32,670 nt of DNA, from UHGV virus genome UHGV-0203498. One strand, given 5' to 3'. This document shows, in pieces, positions 2,451 to 28,924 of the stretch (positions are counted from its first letter, which is position 1; each line of letters opens with the position of its first letter). Made by a program: the position numbers and the translations under genes. The notes under the pieces are model-generated. The model saw only the letters and a list, made by a program, of their open reading frames with translations. It searched no databases and was not told the origin of the DNA. Source of the DNA: a virus.

Positions 2451-3126
2451 TATGCGGGGTTTTGCTGCGCCATTTCATCGAGCGCGATTCGCTCCATTAG
2501 CTTGATATCTTTAAACGCACGTTGCTCGTTTTCGATGCCGTGCATCTTAAATAGCCATTCCAGTACGCCGTAGTCGATGCCGTATGCGCCACCGAATCCG
2601 GTGCGCCATTGCGTGGCGCAATCCGTGAATACGGCGACTATCTTCGCGTTGTCGGGCCATAGCGCAACAGGCGGACAAACATCTTCGGGGGCCGCGCCCC
2701 ATAAACTCGCGGCTAAATCCTCGGAGGGTGGCGGCGGGCCATAATAGCGTCGCGCCGCCTCAATTAGTTTTTTTCACGCAATCCCATCAGTTCGAGATAG
2801 TACGAGGTATGGAACACGCCGAACGCGCGCGGATAGTTGACTACCAGGCGGCGGACGTTCTCCGCATTAAATTCGTCCGGCAGATTCCAGCCTTCGGCGA
2901 CGTGCATGATGGCCTCGACCATAACGTTAAAGCCATCAGGGTCGTTGTCGTCATATTCCGATAGCTTGCGTTCCGTTTCCTGCATGGTCTGCGAAAACTC
3001 GTCAATCGGGCGGTGCCGGACGGTAAACGTCATCTTGCCTGGTTCGTTCTCGCCAGGGCGCGGGATCTCAATCGGCAGCTTAAAGGTTGGCTTAGGGTCG
3101 AGTGTGAAGAGTGGGGCTTTAGCCAT
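2451..3126 (-). CDS. Tail assembly chaperone frameshift fusion (gpGT-like), made by a programmed -1 shift at A AAA AAC (2767-2773)
   Basis: The -1 frame downstream of the heptamer is open for ~104 codons (KKLIEAARRYYGPPPPSEDLAASLWGAAPEDVCPP...MAQQNPA, stop at 2453..2451) and has no start codon of its own. This is the conserved G/GT arrangement upstream of tape measure genes. Confidence 0.55.
2764..3126 (-). CDS. Tail assembly chaperone (lambda gpG-like), 0-frame product
   Basis: ATG at 3126 is preceded by GGAG. Position is between the major tail gene and tape measure gene. The ORF ends in the slippery run GAA AAA AAC TAA. Confidence 0.6.
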   Translation of the reverse strand: MAKAPLFTLDPKPTFKLPIEIPRPGENEPGKMTFTVRHRPIDEFSQTMQETERKLSEYDDNDPDGFNVMVEAIMHVAEGWNLPDEFNAENVRRLVVNYPRAFGVFHTSYYLELMGLREKN

Positions 3127-3141
3127 TGTAATATTCTCCAA

Positions 3142-3166
3142 TAAAAAAGGGGCCGTGCTGGCCCCA
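3142..3166 (-). terminator. Rho-independent terminator after the major tail gene
   Basis: Minus strand reads GGGGCC-agcac-GGCCCC followed by TTTTTTATT (plus-strand stem 3149-3154 / 3160-3165, A-run 3143-3148). Confidence 0.6.
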
Positions 3167-3195
3167 TATTATCACTCGCTATTTACGCGACCAAA

Positions 3196-3921
3196 TCAGG
3201 CGAGTGCCTCAACCAGGTCTTTACGGTAAATAACCATATCTGACTGCATGGTCAGGGTGGCTTGTACCGTCTCCACGTTGTTTACTTCAGCGGACGGAAT
3301 CTTCTGGAAAGATACCTTCGCCGGGTAAATACGAATTTCACCTTTGCCGCTTGCTGCCGCTGGGTTAGTGAACTGGATCACAGTGGTTTTCTGTGTATCG
3401 TCCAGGTCTTCCAGGATTGGGCGGATCGGGTCTTCTTCGTCGTGGGTGAAGGTGTAAGTCTGGACCAACGGGTTTTTCGTGGTGTTAAGACTGATTGCGG
3501 TGTTCACCTGCAACGGCTGGAAGGTAGTCGTCTGCTGGTCGCCACCCGACACGGCAACGTTAGTGATAAACGGGAAGTCGATAAAGCTCGACACCTTCAC
3601 CACTTCGCCCGGTGTGCCAGAGCTAAAAGCGCCGGTAGGGTATTTGGTCACGTCCGAGGAGTCGAAGCGCGCCAGCGTCACGTCGTTCTCGGATACTTTA
3701 CCCACGATGAATGCGCGGTTAAGCGCTCGGACCCACGGGGTCTTAGTGAACATAACAACGTCGCCAACAACCAGGCCATGCGAAGCCGCACAGGTAATTA
3801 CGCAACCTTGCGTAAGGTCGGAGATCGACGCGGCGGCGTTGGTGGCTGCCGTAACAGCGATACCATTGCCTAATACGGATCCAATCTGGACGCTGGATCC
3901 ATTGGGAAGTTGGTAGCCCAA
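3196..3921 (-). CDS. Major tail protein (putative)
   Basis: 241-aa ORF directly upstream of the chaperone and tape measure genes. TTG start at 3921 is preceded by AGGAGG at 6-nt spacing. Followed by an intrinsic terminator, as expected for an abundantly expressed structural gene. Confidence 0.55.
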   Translation of the reverse strand: MGYQLPNGSSVQIGSVLGNGIAVTAATNAAASISDLTQGCVITCAASHGLVVGDVVMFTKTPWVRALNRAFIVGKVSENDVTLARFDSSDVTKYPTGAFSSGTPGEVVKVSSFIDFPFITNVAVSGGDQQTTTFQPLQVNTAISLNTTKNPLVQTYTFTHDEEDPIRPILEDLDDTQKTTVIQFTNPAAASGKGEIRIYPAKVSFQKIPSAEVNNVETVQATLTMQSDMVIYRKDLVEALA

Positions 3922-4036
3922 AATATCCTCCTAAATCAATAGATTACAGTATTTGCAACCTGAGACATTTCAGGTCTTGACTAATCATACCACCAACGGT
4001 ATTATCCACCAAAATCGTTAACCAACCGGAGCGGCT

Positions 4037-4630
4037 ATGCGTAAAGGCATTCTTTTTGAAGGCATGACATTTAGAGGCGTTACTTTGTTGCGTAAAGGGC
4101 CAGGCCTTAAGTGGTTCTGTTCTTGCCCCATATGCGGCAACGAGACACTTCGCACTAACGGCGCGCTATTGGATTTCATGAGAGGCGACACACTGCGTTG
4201 GGTATGTACTTGTTTTGGTAAGAAATCGCGGCACGGTATGACCGGAACTCCAACAATGCTGTCATGGCAAGGCATGATCCAGCGATGCCACAACCCCAAT
4301 GCAGCTAAATACGAAATATATGGCGGTCGAGGGATTACGGTGTGCGACCGCTGGCGAGTATTCAAGAACTTCCTGGAGGATATGGGGCCGCGTCCCAAGG
4401 GCACTACGTTAGACCGTATTGATCAGAATGGTAATTACGAAAAAAGCAACTGCCGTTGGGCTTCGCAAGCTACGCAAAACGATAATACAAGGCGCATTAT
4501 ACATGTTCGTTTTAATGGCGAGGTGTACAACTTAAAATCGGCTTGCAAAGCCGCGGGGGTTAATTACGACACCGTGCGCAAGAAATGGAAAAAAAGCGGT
4601 GAGATGTTCCACCGCTTCGAGATAGTCTAG
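4037..4630 (+). CDS. HNH-type homing endonuclease-like protein with N-terminal Cys cluster
   Basis: Opposite strand to the flanking tail genes. Cys cluster CSCPICGN...CTC, and a C-terminal region YEIYGGRGITVCDRW...TLDRIDQNGNYEKSNCRWASQATQNDN that resembles phage HNH endonuclease signatures. GGAG 7 nt before the ATG. Confidence 0.5.
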   Translation: MRKGILFEGMTFRGVTLLRKGPGLKWFCSCPICGNETLRTNGALLDFMRGDTLRWVCTCFGKKSRHGMTGTPTMLSWQGMIQRCHNPNAAKYEIYGGRGITVCDRWRVFKNFLEDMGPRPKGTTLDRIDQNGNYEKSNCRWASQATQNDNTRRIIHVRFNGEVYNLKSACKAAGVNYDTVRKKWKKSGEMFHRFEIV

Positions 4631-5049
4631 CCGCAACAGCTATACATGACCGATACCACGATGCGGGCGCGATCAACATCCTCGACCACCGAACTGGTGT
4701 ATGGCGCGTCCTGAAGCTGGAAAGCCGCACCATCGATCTTGACGCCCTGCCATTTGTCAGACGTCGCGATGGCGTCCGCCAGTTCGCTCGCGTACTGTGT
4801 GCCAGTGCCCGCGGGAAACACAACGGCAACCTGGTAAACGCCTGCATAGATCCGGCCTTTCTGCTGAAGTCCAGCAAACTGGGTCGGGGCCGGTAGCAGG
4901 TACGGATCAAGATAGACGCCATTGCCGTTTGCGTGGTCCCCCTTCACGTTCTCCCAGTTAACCTGGATCGGGCGCTGGTTAGTGCTCAGGCTTACCGATA
5001 ACTCTTCTACTACGCTGTTAAGCGCCTTGCGGATTAGAGTATTGCTCAT
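4627..5049 (-). CDS. Structural protein, possibly tail terminator / tail completion
   Basis: 140-aa ORF between the neck-type genes and the major tail gene. Its ATG at 5049 overlaps the upstream stop (TAATG). Assignment is by position only. Confidence 0.4.
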   Translation of the reverse strand: MSNTLIRKALNSVVEELSVSLSTNQRPIQVNWENVKGDHANGNGVYLDPYLLPAPTQFAGLQQKGRIYAGVYQVAVVFPAGTGTQYASELADAIATSDKWQGVKIDGAAFQLQDAPYTSSVVEDVDRARIVVSVMYSCCG

Positions 5050-5642
5050 TATTTCACCTTAGAATTAATTTCTGCCGCTACTACGCGAACAATCCCTGCT
5101 GGCGCTTGTTTACTCCAGCCATATTCCAGTCGCTGGGCATACGGCACATTATTAGTAAACCAGATCGACCCATATTCCCCAGAATCGTAATGCGCCAGCA
5201 CTTCACGCCCCGCGGCTAATGTTGCCGTCCCGGCCTTGTCCACGCGGTCAATAGCGCCGACAGCCGGACGGTCGAACGTAACCTGCCAGTTGCCCCGGAA
5301 GCGTCCGCCGGTGTAATTCTTCGCGGCCCAGCCACGCTGGCGGAACGTGACGATGCCGTTTTTAGTTTTGAATGATACAAGCACACTGGCGTGCTTCTTC
5401 TGCCCGCGCTTCAGTTTACCGCCATTCTTGCGGCGCTGTGCGGCGTTAACCTTGTTTGCGTGCTGGCGAGCCATCGCGTACGCCCTGTTGATCTTCCACC
5501 GGCGGGGATCGCCCACCGGGGAAATCTCAATCAGGCGTCCGAGTATATGCATACCGGTAGCCCGCACCGCAAAGTCGTTGTTCTCCTTCGTCTTCTCTAC
5601 CCATGTTGCAATGGTAGCGGCGAACGAGTAGACCTCAGCCAC
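5049..5642 (-). CDS. Structural protein, possibly neck / head-tail joining
   Basis: 197-aa ORF with a GTG start at 5642 preceded by AAGGGG. Sits in the head-tail joining region. Assignment is by position. Confidence 0.4.
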   Translation of the reverse strand: MAEVYSFAATIATWVEKTKENNDFAVRATGMHILGRLIEISPVGDPRRWKINRAYAMARQHANKVNAAQRRKNGGKLKRGQKKHASVLVSFKTKNGIVTFRQRGWAAKNYTGGRFRGNWQVTFDRPAVGAIDRVDKAGTATLAAGREVLAHYDSGEYGSIWFTNNVPYAQRLEYGWSKQAPAGIVRVVAAEINSKVK

Positions 5643-5643
5643 G

Positions 5644-5997
5644 TTAGCCCCTTAGCTGTAATTGAAACAGCATGGTAGTTCCCGCCGGTTGCAGTGGGTT
5701 TGGGTTGATAACCCGGTAGTCTGTGCTATTCAGGTTAACCAGATCGCCTACCTGCACTTGCTCCGATGCCTGGCATAAGAACTTTACGTCACCGGCAATG
5801 ACACGAGTCCCATCGATCTCGCTGGGCTTGTACTCCTCCCGAAGACCGATGACATCAAACGACGTTGGCGGGACAACCACTTCGTCGCCGTCTACGCGGT
5901 CAACAGACCCTGGACGCGTCACCTTAACGGTCATGCCGTATTTTTTAATCCGCGGATTTACTTTCCGCTTCAAGCCTGCGTAATTAAAGCCCGCCAT
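5644..5997 (-). CDS. Head-tail adaptor-like protein
   Basis: ATG at 5997 preceded by AGGAGA at 9-nt spacing; ~117 aa; gene order is consistent with a head-tail adaptor. Confidence 0.4.
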   Translation of the reverse strand: MAGFNYAGLKRKVNPRIKKYGMTVKVTRPGSVDRVDGDEVVVPPTSFDVIGLREEYKPSEIDGTRVIAGDVKFLCQASEQVQVGDLVNLNSTDYRVINPNPLQPAGTTMLFQLQLRG

Positions 5998-6098
5998 CTT
6001 CTTCACTCTCCTGTGCCGGTGGTACTGGTTCTGGCTCCGGTTCCGGTGGCTGTTTGGTATTTGCGGCGATCATAGCCGCGAGTAATGCCGGATTCATA

Positions 6099-28316: not shown

Positions 28317-28649
28317 ATGAAAAAAGTAAAAGTAGACGTTTATAGATACGAGTTTTTCGTCTCGCCGTGCGCCGACGAGGTGGCGGCAAAATGCAAGCGG
28401 ATAACAGGGTATCAACCTGATAGCGACGATTTTAGCGCTAATGCCTTCGTCGTTTTTGGTAAAGGGACGTGCCTGGTCTGGATGCCCCCAACGGCAAGTA
28501 TTAACACGGTGGCACATGAGGCCACACACGTAGCGATGAATCTCATGCGGGACTGCGGTATTGCGCCTGACCTCCATAACCAGGAGGTTATGGCGTATTT
28601 AATCGGGTATATCGTCGGCGAGATAAACCGGGCAAGGAACGCACAATGA
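28317..28649 (+). CDS. Small HExxH-motif protein (putative zinc metallopeptidase-like)
   Basis: ATG at 28317 preceded by AGGAAG; motif VAHEATHVAMNL; about 110 aa. Confidence 0.5.
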   Translation: MKKVKVDVYRYEFFVSPCADEVAAKCKRITGYQPDSDDFSANAFVVFGKGTCLVWMPPTASINTVAHEATHVAMNLMRDCGIAPDLHNQEVMAYLIGYIVGEINRARNAQ

Positions 28650-28924
28650 CCCCAGAAGGCAAGATTCAAAGCTACCTGATGCGTCGGGTGAAAGCGGTGG
28701 GTGGATTCTGCCGCAAAGTGGCCTGGGAGGGGCGCGCAGGTGCGCCCGACCTGATTATCATCATCAACGGCATCATTGTATTCGTCGAAGTGAAGCGCCC
28801 AGGGGGAAAACCGAAGCCGCACCAGGTGCGAGAGCATGCGCGGATGGCCCGCCGCGGTGCTGACGTTCGCGTCATTGACAACATAGCCGACTGTGATTTA
28901 TTGGTTGCTGAATTGGTCGCATAG
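28646..28924 (+). CDS. VRR-NUC domain nuclease
   Basis: GAPDLIII...VFVEVKRPGGKPKPHQ matches the PD-(D/E)xK core of VRR-NUC domains; start coupled to the upstream stop (ATGA). Confidence 0.8.
   Translation: MTPEGKIQSYLMRRVKAVGGFCRKVAWEGRAGAPDLIIIINGIIVFVEVKRPGGKPKPHQVREHARMARRGADVRVIDNIADCDLLVAELVA

What the first reader, a model, noticed from the sequence alone, without database searches (positions are those of the whole stretch)
4037..4630. Endonuclease-like gene on the opposite strand within the tail-gene string
An HNH-like protein with a Cys cluster interrupts the minus-strand structural operon in the opposite orientation, convergent with and overlapping the 3' end of gene 4627-5049 by 4 nt. 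This is typical of a free-standing homing endonuclease insertion and marks a likely recent mobile-element event; related phages may lack it.
Basis: partly seen in the sequence, partly recalled or inferred. Interest (0 to 1): 0.45.

Follow-up and report, generated by a model that had tools for sequence, protein, structure and literature searches.

The report
Mobile endonuclease-like gene lacking catalytic histidine
A small selfish gene cassette sits between two tail genes of this E. coli phage and is absent from almost all relatives, as homing endonuclease genes usually are, but its nuclease-like domain has arginine where every such enzyme normally has its catalytic histidine.

Summary
ORF 4037-4630 (+) is a real gene under purifying selection. 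It is convergent with the tail-terminator gene and shares 4 nt (CTAG) with it. The window is a Dhillonvirus. Of 159 matching GenBank phage records, only JLBYU27 carries the gene. The others have a conserved 61-bp spacer at this position.

Twelve further insert-carrying loci were recovered (JLBYU27 plus metagenome contigs). All carry the gene at exactly this site, and the alleles are diverged (down to 59% aa identity) and mosaic. Carriers differ consistently from non-carriers only at the cassette edges: five silent or start-codon changes in the first 24 nt of the major-tail-protein gene (ATG becomes TTG or ATC) and the terminator gene's stop codon. This fits a site-specific mobile cassette of about 3898-4630. 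It is an old polymorphism, not a recent insertion.

"HNH" is only partly right. The fold is beta-beta-alpha, and the closest solved structure is PacI. The protein aligns colinearly with I-HmuI, but the catalytic His is Arg in 431 of 438 family copies and is never His. The metal-binding Asn is Gln. No Pfam, NCBIfam or PDB sequence match exists, although the family has about 195,000 50%-identity clusters. Nuclease activity is inferred, not shown.

The parts
4037..4630 (+). Endonuclease-like gene, 197 aa including the stop codon. It has an N-terminal Cys-cluster beta domain (aa 1-60), a helical plus beta-beta-alpha core (aa 62-152) and a C-terminal beta-hairpin plus helix-turn-helix (aa 155-190).
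   Evidence: ORF list. PHROG HNH-labelled families at 7e-48. AF2 models with pLDDT 83 and 85. dN/dS 0.12-0.17.
4037..4216 (+). N-terminal Cys-cluster module (aa 1-60), probably a zinc-binding DNA-binding module. It comes in two unrelated allelic types: A here, B in L006 and L007.
4220..4492 (+). Core domain: three helices followed by beta-beta-alpha (strands aa 123-127 and 139-143, helix 144-151). The motif is D126-R127-x-D129...Y134...N138-C-R-W141...Q147..N150. The conserved residues H66, C84, C103 and C139 are candidate Zn ligands.
4499..4606 (+). C-terminal beta-hairpin plus helix-turn-helix, resembling the I-HmuI NUMOD-like DNA-binding domain.
   Evidence: It aligns colinearly with I-HmuI residues 124-158 (PF22083 region) in hhalign. 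Two family members carry PF22083 or PF07460.
3977..4005 (+). Sigma-70-like promoter for the gene: TTGACT, 17 nt, TATTAT (10 of 12 matches).
   Evidence: Consensus scan. A promoter-like site sits at the same place in JLBYU27 (TTGACT-17-TACTAT) and in the diverged type-B cassette L007 (TTGCCA-17-TACTAT). This is a consensus match only; function is not shown.
4028..4031 (+). Shine-Dalgarno GGAG, 5 nt before the ATG.
   Evidence: Read from the sequence.
3958..3975 (.). Inverted repeat ACCTGA-gacatt-TCAGGT, ending 1 nt upstream of the -35 hexamer (3977). It may be an operator or an RNA element.
   Evidence: Read from the sequence. It is conserved in type-A alleles. Type B has a different palindrome at the equivalent position. 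Function is unknown.
3922..3936 (-). Cassette-supplied translation signals for the major tail protein: AGGAGG (3927-3932 on the minus strand) followed by ATATT. These replace the native CAGGAG...CATT leader.
   Evidence: Alignment of carriers and non-carriers.
3898..3921 (-). Recoded first 8 codons of the major tail protein gene. The start codon is TTG instead of ATG, and there are silent changes at 3916, 3913, 3901 and 3898. This is the left edge of the mobile unit and the candidate immunity or co-conversion tract.
   Evidence: Apart from the stop-codon position 4628, these are the only fixed differences between six type-A carriers and nine non-carriers across 1741 flank columns. Enrichment has Fisher p = 2e-7. 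Type-B carriers have ATC in place of ATG.
4627..4630 (.). Right edge of the cassette: CTAG, shared by the stop codons of the endonuclease-like gene (+) and the tail terminator gene (-). The terminator's stop codon is TGA in non-carriers and TAG or TAA in carriers.
4583..4618 (-). Intrinsic-terminator-like hairpin on the late-operon strand: a 10-bp stem followed by seven T. It lies inside the last 15 codons of the endonuclease-like gene, starting 9 nt downstream of the tail terminator gene's stop codon.
   Evidence: Scan. Fold energy -24.1 kcal/mol, z = -3.5. The hairpin is conserved in L006 and L007 and weakened by one mismatch in JLBYU27.
3196..3921 (-). Major tail protein gene, the left flank.
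   Evidence: phrog_584, 1e-73.
4627..5049 (-). Tail terminator gene, the right flank.
   Evidence: phrog_179, 1e-25. PF13554 is recorded for the orthologues.

Best explanation
A self-contained mobile cassette of about 730 bp (3898-4630) replaces the conserved 61-bp spacer between the tail-terminator and major-tail-protein genes of a Dhillonvirus. It carries its own sigma-70-like promoter and ribosome-binding site and one gene.

The protein has the modular build of a phage homing endonuclease: an N-terminal Cys-cluster module, a beta-beta-alpha-metal-type core related to the I-HmuI/HNH_3 and PacI folds, and a C-terminal NUMOD-like helix-turn-helix.

Inferred mechanism. In a mixed infection the protein binds the insert-less allele, meaning the conserved spacer plus the first codons of the major tail protein gene, and nicks or cuts it. 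Recombinational repair from the carrier genome then copies in the cassette together with the first 24 nt of the tail gene. Carrier alleles would be immune because the spacer is gone and the adjoining codons, including the ATG, are recoded.

What is shown: the gene is real and under selection, the presence/absence pattern, the site specificity, allele mosaicism, the edge-restricted fixed differences, and the fold and residue pattern.

What is inferred: DNA cleavage, the target site, and the catalytic chemistry. That chemistry cannot be the canonical His-general-base mechanism. It may instead use the family-invariant Arg127 with Tyr134, Gln147 and Asp126, as PacI uses a Tyr.
For: Presence and absence. 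Only 1 of 159 related GenBank records carries the insert. Nine non-carriers share a highly conserved spacer.

Site specificity. Twelve further carrier loci (L001, L003-L007, L019-L022) have the gene at the identical site and with the same 4-nt convergent overlap (JLBYU27 record). They include alleles at 94, 84, 76 and 59% aa identity and a phage whose flanks are only 52-75% identical.

Mobility. JLBYU27's flanks are closest to non-carrier phages (Neck1 98% to ZCEC11 and JLBYU60) and not to the window. The alleles are mosaics of modules M1-M4 in different combinations.

Edge signature. The only fixed carrier/non-carrier differences in 1741 flank columns are five sites in the first 24 nt of the tail gene plus the stop codon (p = 2e-7). 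Two unrelated cassette types both removed the ATG, giving TTG and ATC.

Functional protein. dN/dS is 0.12-0.17 and every allele is intact.

Active-site-like conservation over 438 copies: R127 98%, N138 98%, W141 98%, Y134 93%, Q147 87%, D/E126 87%.

Precedent. PacI is an active His-less member of the superfamily that uses an omega-loop Tyr (PMC5714182 and PMC4081073).
Against: The general-base His that defines His-Me finger nucleases is never present at position 127; it is Arg in 431 of 438 copies. The metal-binding Asn is Gln. Two of the three known His-less groups, Smad MH1 and ENPP, are catalytically dead DNA or substrate binders (PMC5714182).

Tyr134 is Phe in 6% of copies.

No cleavage or homing experiment exists for this family in the literature searched. 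The promoter is a consensus match only. The edge-restricted differences could be hitch-hiking donor polymorphism, or adaptation of the translation-initiation region, rather than nuclease immunity.
Confidence: 0.6

Rival explanations
1. The protein is a domesticated or catalytically dead HNH derivative. It would be a sequence-specific DNA-binding protein, such as a regulator or exclusion factor, that keeps the beta-beta-alpha scaffold only for DNA binding. The cassette would then spread passively, by ordinary homologous recombination between the conserved flanking tail genes, and persist because it benefits the phage.
For: The catalytic His is absent in every one of 438 copies, and the metal-binding Asn is replaced by Gln. 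Smad MH1 and ENPP are precedents for inactive His-less His-Me fingers that retain binding (PMC5714182). The cassette has a moron-like layout with its own promoter, in opposite orientation, and a hairpin at the gene end. Purifying selection fits any functional protein. Distant relatives sit co-oriented inside early or recombination operons rather than as obvious insertions.
Against: The identical insertion site recurs in phages whose flanks are only 52-75% identical. Two unrelated N-terminal and promoter modules are found at that one site. Fixed differences confined to the 24 nt next to the junction, including convergent loss of the ATG, are hard to explain by passive recombination. The strongest conservation falls at exactly the positions that form the active site in HNH_3 enzymes, namely D/E126, R127, N138 and Q147, plus an omega-loop Tyr as in the active His-less enzyme PacI. 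The family's size and sporadic distribution are typical of selfish nucleases.
Confidence: 0.25
2. One reading: a recent insertion of a canonical HNH homing endonuclease gene into this particular phage lineage.
For: Most relatives lack the gene. PHROG labels its families HNH endonuclease.
Against: The alleles at this site have diverged to 59% aa identity with saturated dS, and they are mosaic. The window's allele is only 94% identical to its nearest relative. Canonical HNH features fail: no His, and no Pfam HNH or HNH_3 hit.
Confidence: 0.1
3. There is no real gene: a chance ORF on the antisense strand of an intergenic insert.
For: None beyond the opposite orientation.
Against: 7976 homologues and about 195,000 cluster representatives. 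dN/dS is 0.12-0.17. The structure prediction is confident.
Confidence: 0.01

Closest known systems
I-HmuI (Bacillus phage SPO1 intron-encoded HNH_3 nicking homing endonuclease, PDB 1U3E) and HNH_3/NUMOD free-standing phage endonucleases
   Same: Both have a modular build, with a beta-beta-alpha-metal segment followed by a NUMOD-like helix-turn-helix. The profile alignment is colinear over 65 columns (E = 1e-4). The scaffold residues are shared: D74/D126, D77/D129, N87/N138, R89/R140, W90/W141 and N99/N150. Both are phage-borne and sporadically distributed.
   Different: H75, the general base and invariant in 42 I-HmuI relatives, is Arg here. The metal ligand N96 is Gln. There is no NUMOD4 N-terminal domain; a Cys-cluster module and a three-helix segment take its place. 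No Pfam HNH_3 hit was found. This gene is free-standing and intergenic, not intron-encoded.
PacI restriction endonuclease (His-Me finger group 20, PDB 3M7K/3LDY)
   Different: Sequence identity is only 16% and there is no sequence-level hit. The equivalence of Tyr134 to the PacI Tyr was not verified. PacI is a homodimeric 8-bp restriction enzyme of a bacterium. This is a phage gene with extra DNA-binding modules and the population genetics of a homing element.
Free-standing homing endonuclease genes of T-even phages (segs, mobE; e.g. PMC2790892)
   Same: The location is intergenic between conserved essential genes, with its own expression signals. Close relatives show presence/absence polymorphism. 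The neighbouring gene differs in sequence exactly next to the insertion, consistent with target-site immunity and co-conversion.
   Different: Those enzymes are GIY-YIG or canonical HNH proteins with demonstrated cleavage. No activity is demonstrated here and the catalytic residue set is different. Here the cassette also supplies the neighbouring essential gene's ribosome-binding site and changes its start codon.
Phage morons (independent promoter-gene-terminator units between late genes)
   Same: The cassette is an independent transcription unit inserted between two late structural genes, in opposite orientation, and absent from relatives.
   Different: The protein belongs to an endonuclease-like family rather than to host-fitness factors. 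The insertion site is strictly conserved across diverged phages and carries an edge-recoding signature.

Membership tests
HNH / His-Me finger (beta-beta-alpha-metal) nuclease superfamily | Beta-beta-alpha core fold | tested here: met
HNH / His-Me finger (beta-beta-alpha-metal) nuclease superfamily | Catalytic general-base His at the end of the first beta strand ('nearly invariant', PMC5714182) | tested here: not met
   The aligned position is R127. It is Arg in all 50 and all 66 aligned homologues and in 431 of 438 domain copies from 281 diverse proteins, and it is never His.
HNH / His-Me finger (beta-beta-alpha-metal) nuclease superfamily | Metal-binding Asn or His in the first turn of the helix, and an acidic residue preceding the catalytic position | tested here: inconclusive
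   The helix position is Q147 (Gln 380, Asn 14 of 438), not Asn or His. The acidic D/E126 is retained (379 of 438). Gln could ligate a metal, but this was not tested.
HNH / His-Me finger (beta-beta-alpha-metal) nuclease superfamily | Structural Asn in the omega loop (the middle N of H-N-H) | tested here: met
   N138 aligns with I-HmuI N87 and is present in 431 of 438 copies.
Pfam HNH (PF01844) / HNH_3 (PF13392) | Match to the curated model above the gathering score | tested here: not met
   No HNH-clan hit appeared even at E <= 10 for the whole protein or for the isolated core. I-HmuI, run as a positive control, hits HNH_3 at 1.8e-10. NCBIfam gave no hits.
PacI-like His-less His-Me finger (group 20 of PMC5714182) | Omega-loop Tyr that substitutes for the His | tested here: inconclusive
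PacI-like His-less His-Me finger (group 20 of PMC5714182) | Structural zinc sites flanking the active site | not testable with these tools
   The conserved residues H66, C84, C103 and C139 are candidates. Their geometry could not be inspected.
Free-standing homing endonuclease gene (functional class) | Sporadic presence at one specific site among otherwise syntenic relatives | tested here: met
   1 of 159 GenBank relatives carries it. All 12 further carrier loci found have it at the same junctions. Flank haplotypes are discordant with cassette relationships.
Free-standing homing endonuclease gene (functional class) | Own expression signals in an intergenic position | tested here: inconclusive
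   A promoter-like site scoring 10 of 12 plus GGAG are present, and promoter-like sites are at the equivalent place in two other cassette types. These are consensus matches only. The count in this region does not exceed the shuffles.
Free-standing homing endonuclease gene (functional class) | The insert-less allele carries a target site near the insertion point, and the carrier allele is altered there | tested here: inconclusive
   The spacer and the tail-gene start are highly conserved in non-carriers. In carriers the spacer is entirely replaced, with no residual homology. The only fixed flank differences lie within 24 nt of the junction. This is consistent with the feature, but cleavage has not been shown.
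Free-standing homing endonuclease gene (functional class) | Site-specific DNA cleavage and super-Mendelian inheritance | not testable with these tools
   This needs biochemistry and mixed-infection crosses.
NUMOD-type DNA-binding module | Match to NUMOD1 or the I-HmuI NUMOD-like domain | tested here: inconclusive
   The window protein has no Pfam hit, only a weak HTH_28 match at 0.09. hhalign aligns aa 155-186 with the PF22083 region of I-HmuI. Two homologues carry PF22083 or PF07460.

The most novel reading that the evidence does not exclude
This gene represents an enormous phage-borne clade of beta-beta-alpha-metal proteins: about 195,000 clusters at 50% identity, with no Pfam or NCBIfam model and no solved structure. 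In this clade the otherwise near-universal catalytic His is replaced by an invariant Arg and the metal-binding Asn by Gln. Even so, its members behave as active homing elements. That would imply a distinct catalytic solution for His-Me-finger-type nucleases, for example the omega-loop Tyr134 acting as base or nucleophile as in PacI, with Arg127 stabilising the transition state. It would also mean a large share of phage 'HNH endonuclease' annotations rest on an untested mechanism.
Probability: 0.3. Interest if true: 0.65.

Novelty: new variant of a known kind. Interest (0 to 1): 0.5.

Why it matters
This locus is a clean natural experiment for a homing-type element. There are dozens of sequenced insert-less Dhillonviruses, many of them cultured (for example BASEL phages Bas83 and Bas85), with an invariant candidate target. 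There are several diverged, modular carrier alleles. The predicted footprint is sharply delimited, at 24 recoded nucleotides that include the start codon of an essential, highly expressed gene.

The locus also exposes an annotation problem. One of the largest endonuclease-labelled phage protein families lacks the residue that defines HNH catalysis. [quoted passage not shown] If the modules that vary between alleles (M1, M3) set specificity, the family could supply programmable DNA-binding or nicking parts.

Tried and rejected
- Pfam at E up to 10, on the whole protein and on three fragments, gave no HNH-clan hit; only DUF3797 appeared, below its cut-off. NCBIfam gave nothing.
- PDB sequence searches with the protein and with a 50-sequence profile found no relative. 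Actinohivin and L24e were noise.
- Foldseek against PDB gave nothing below E = 0.7.
- The first profile-profile run produced an artefactual 91% match between gappy alignment tails and was discarded. It was redone on trimmed alignments.
- A search for paralogues in the window found none.
- Tests for remnants of the 61-bp spacer at either end of the cassette were not significant (p = 0.23 and 0.66), so this is a replacement and not a simple insertion.
- Literature searches for Dhillonvirus homing endonucleases, His-less phage HNH proteins and the family's motif strings found nothing specific. The motif search was swamped by 'Aldridge'-type words.
- The PacI structure paper (PMC2886031) is not held, so PacI residue numbers could not be compared.
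- An attempt to megablast 25,001 bases of the window failed on the length limit and was not repeated.
- The packaging-type HNH next to terminase was considered and rejected as an explanation. This gene is sporadic and sits between tail genes, and the ten other window genes that were scanned are ordinary Dhillonvirus functions.

Full report
**1. Observation**

The ORF 4037..4630 on the plus strand (197 aa, ATG start, GGAG five bases upstream) is present as described. It ends in the tetranucleotide CTAG at 4627-4630, which supplies the TAG stop of both this ORF and the minus-strand ORF 4627..5049. The 4-nt convergent overlap is therefore exact.

The neighbours on the minus strand are the tail assembly chaperone, the major tail protein (3196..3921, phrog_584 1e-73), the tail terminator (4627..5049, phrog_179 1e-25) and the Neck1/tail-completion protein. 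The gene is thus a lone plus-strand gene inside a minus-strand head-tail string.

It is a real gene. Two PHROG families labelled 'HNH endonuclease' match at 7e-48 and 1e-45. There are 7976 homologues in the 90%-clustered database. Pairwise dN/dS between alleles is 0.12-0.17.

**2. What the window is, and who has the gene**

Megablast of 3000-6000 finds 159 phage records, essentially all of genus Dhillonvirus (HK578-like E. coli siphoviruses). Only Escherichia phage JLBYU27 covers the whole query. Every other record covers 76% or less, in two pieces. A sensitive search with the insert alone again finds only JLBYU27, at 83% identity.

In nine insert-less phages that I fetched, a 61-bp spacer joins the tail-terminator stop codon (TGA) to the ATG of the major tail protein gene. 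This spacer is unusually conserved, even in LM40P1, whose flanking genes are only about 78% identical.

In the window the whole spacer is replaced. Neither end of the insert shows significant residual similarity to the spacer. The exact window protein exists in GenBank as a TPA metagenome entry, DAG74030.1 'hypothetical protein'. Cluster mates are labelled 'DUF3797' or 'homing endonuclease'.

**3. Site specificity and age**

Look-ups of the 94%, 76% and 59% identical proteins and of three further cluster members returned metagenome contigs, several of about 44 kb. In every one the gene lies between the same two genes, with the same orientation and the same 4-nt overlap.

One of these (L007) is a distinct phage whose flanking genes are only 52-75% identical to the window's.

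The alleles are mosaic:
- **Module 1** (promoter region plus N-terminal Cys domain, 3900-4210) has two unrelated types. Type A is in the window, L003-5, L019-21 and JLBYU27. Type B is in L006 and L007.
- **Module 2** (4220-4370) has two variants, which assort independently of module 1.
- **Module 3** (4380-4540, the beta-beta-alpha plus beta-hairpin) has at least four or five variants, as low as 52-58% nucleotide identity.
- **Module 4** (4540-4626) is conserved.

The window is 1A+2a+3x, L003 is 1A+2b+3x, L006 is 1B+2b+3x and JLBYU27 is 1A+2a+3y.

JLBYU27's flanking genes are closest to insert-less phages (Neck1 98% to ZCEC11 and JLBYU60, against 91% to the window). The cassette is therefore an old polymorphism that recombines and moves between backgrounds. 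It is not a recent arrival.

**4. The edge signature**

I compared six type-A carriers with nine non-carriers over 1741 aligned columns of the three flanking genes. Only six positions are fixed differences: 3921, 3916, 3913, 3901 and 3898, all within the first 24 nt of the major tail protein gene, and 4628 in the tail-terminator stop codon. The enrichment next to the junction has Fisher p = 2e-7.

All of these changes are synonymous except the start codon, which is ATG in every non-carrier and TTG in all type-A carriers. The unrelated type-B cassettes (L006, L007) have ATC there. An in-frame stop lies three codons upstream and there is no other start before about codon 55, while the N-terminal peptide remains conserved.

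Two different cassette types have thus independently removed the ATG of an essential, abundantly expressed gene. I read this as evidence that the target of the encoded protein spans the spacer/start-codon region and that carriers must differ there. This is an inference. Hitch-hiking or re-tuning of translation initiation are alternatives. The cassette also supplies a new, stronger Shine-Dalgarno sequence (AGGAGG) for the tail gene.

**5. Expression signals**

A near-consensus sigma-70 promoter (TTGACT-17-TATTAT, 3977-4005) precedes the gene. Promoter-like sites sit at the same place in JLBYU27 and in the diverged L007 cassette. These are pattern matches only.

An inverted repeat (3958-3975) ends one base upstream of the -35 element.

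On the opposite strand, a 10-bp hairpin followed by seven T (4618..4583) lies inside the last 15 codons of the gene, starting 9 nt downstream of the tail-terminator stop. Its fold energy is -24.1 kcal/mol, z = -3.5. It is conserved in L006 and L007.

**6. What the protein is**

AlphaFold models, of the full protein (pLDDT 83) and of the core alone (pLDDT 85), give three parts:
- an N-terminal beta domain carrying the Cys cluster;
- a three-helix segment followed by two strands and a helix;
- a C-terminal hairpin plus helix-turn-helix.

I verified the I-HmuI sequence against phage SPO1 (100% identity) and confirmed its NUMOD4, HNH_3 and NUMOD-like domains. I then built a 42-member alignment in which H75 is invariant.

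Profile-profile comparison with the 50-member alignment of the present family gives a colinear 65-column alignment (E = 1e-4, probability 58%) through the beta-beta-alpha and the NUMOD-like helix-turn-helix. The residue correspondences are D126/D74, R127/H75, D129/D77, N138/N87, W141/W90, Q147/N96 and N150/N99.

So the scaffold of an HNH_3 enzyme is present. However, the general-base His is Arg and the metal-binding Asn is Gln.

**7. The family**

An exhaustive profile search finds 194,988 representatives of 50%-identity clusters at E <= 1e-3, and 84,160 at E <= 1e-30. Many proteins contain two or more copies of the domain, and some have up to eleven copies of the N-terminal Cys module.

Conservation in 438 core copies from 281 diverse proteins:

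| Position | Residue counts (of 438) |
|---|---|
| 127 | Arg 431; never His |
| N138 | 431 |
| W141 | 428 |
| W106 | 432 |
| Y134 | 409 (Phe 26) |
| Q147 | 380 (Asn 14) |
| N150 | 384 |
| D/E126 | 379 |
| C84 | 420 |
| C103 | 379 |
| C139 | 360 |

Neither Pfam nor NCBIfam has a model for this family.

[quoted passage not shown] Only three groups lack it. PacI is active and an omega-loop Tyr takes over. Smad MH1 and the ENPP nuclease-like domain are both inactive (PMC5714182; PMC4081073).

The present family has a conserved omega-loop Tyr, and PacI is its nearest solved structure. That makes a PacI-like chemistry a reasonable but untested idea.

**8. Interpretation**

The population-genetic behaviour matches a free-standing homing endonuclease gene: one precise site, sporadic carriage, discordant flanks, allele shuffling, an intact gene under selection, and edge-restricted recoding. 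The modular architecture matches phage homing enzymes.

I therefore favour an active, site-specific nicking or cutting enzyme with a non-canonical active site (confidence about 0.6 for the whole statement). The 'mobile cassette' part is much firmer than the 'nuclease' part.

The main rival, at about 0.25, is a catalytically dead DNA-binding derivative carried on a moron-like cassette that spreads by ordinary recombination.

It is wrong on 'recent', and imprecise on 'HNH'.

**9. Novelty and score**

Free-standing endonuclease-like genes in phage structural operons are commonplace, and this one is already in GenBank, unannotated.

What is less ordinary is threefold:
- the defining catalytic residue is missing throughout a very large, uncurated family that is nevertheless labelled 'HNH endonuclease';
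- the locus has a very clean, testable anatomy;
- the cassette rewrites the start codon and ribosome-binding site of the major tail protein gene.

I rate this as a new variant of a known kind, with interest 0.5.

Noticed in passing
window 4583-4618 (minus strand); L006 750-775; L007 1868-1893: A strong terminator-like hairpin for the late (minus) strand is embedded in the last 15 codons of the plus-strand gene, starting 9 nt downstream of the tail-terminator stop and upstream of the highly expressed major tail protein gene. Insert-less phages have a smaller hairpin (GCGCA-nTTC-TGCGC) at the equivalent place in the spacer. Its effect on tail-gene expression is unknown. In L007 the same stem also qualifies as a plus-strand terminator.
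   Followed up: partly
window 3919-3921; L006 and L007 tail-gene starts (L007 about 1206-1208): The major tail protein gene starts with TTG in type-A carriers. In type-B carriers it apparently starts with the non-canonical ATC: an in-frame stop lies three codons upstream, there is no alternative start for about 55 codons, and the N-terminal peptide is conserved. All nine insert-less phages use ATG.
   Followed up: partly
window 4037-4626 versus L001, L003, L006, L007, L019-L021: Alleles of the gene are mosaics of four modules that assort independently. Module 3 (aa 115-168, the beta-beta-alpha helix and the following beta-hairpin) is hypervariable, with at least 4-5 variants at 52-82% nucleotide identity. 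The amino-acid changes concentrate on what are likely DNA-facing elements.
   Followed up: partly
proteins P0258, P0329, P0331, P0344, P0397 and others: Some family members contain up to 11 tandem copies of the N-terminal Cys-cluster module, or 2-5 copies of the whole unit. This suggests the Cys module is a reusable DNA-binding repeat comparable to NUMODs.
   Followed up: no
window 3958-3975: A perfect 6-bp inverted repeat (ACCTGA/TCAGGT, 6-nt loop) ends one base before the -35 hexamer of the gene's promoter-like site. Type-B cassettes carry a different palindrome (CCGnTCATGAnCGG) at the equivalent position. This could be an autoregulatory operator or an element of the tail-gene 5' UTR.
   Followed up: no
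L009 (phage SM_A2) 3964-4170: Another Dhillonvirus has a different extra plus-strand ORF, in an expansion of about 450 bp between the head-closure and adaptor genes. That points to a second variable insertion spot in the same structural operon.
   Followed up: no
L001 / OK272475.1: The only GenBank isolate carrying the cassette, JLBYU27, is deposited as a 'complete genome' of 16,547 bp, whereas relatives are about 44-45 kb. The record is evidently partial, and the gene is annotated only as a hypothetical protein.
   Followed up: no
window 28415-28837 (minus strand): A 141-aa ORF with no PHROG match at 1e-5, lying among otherwise well-annotated early or replication genes (SSB/annealing protein, methyltransferase, ligase).
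   Followed up: no
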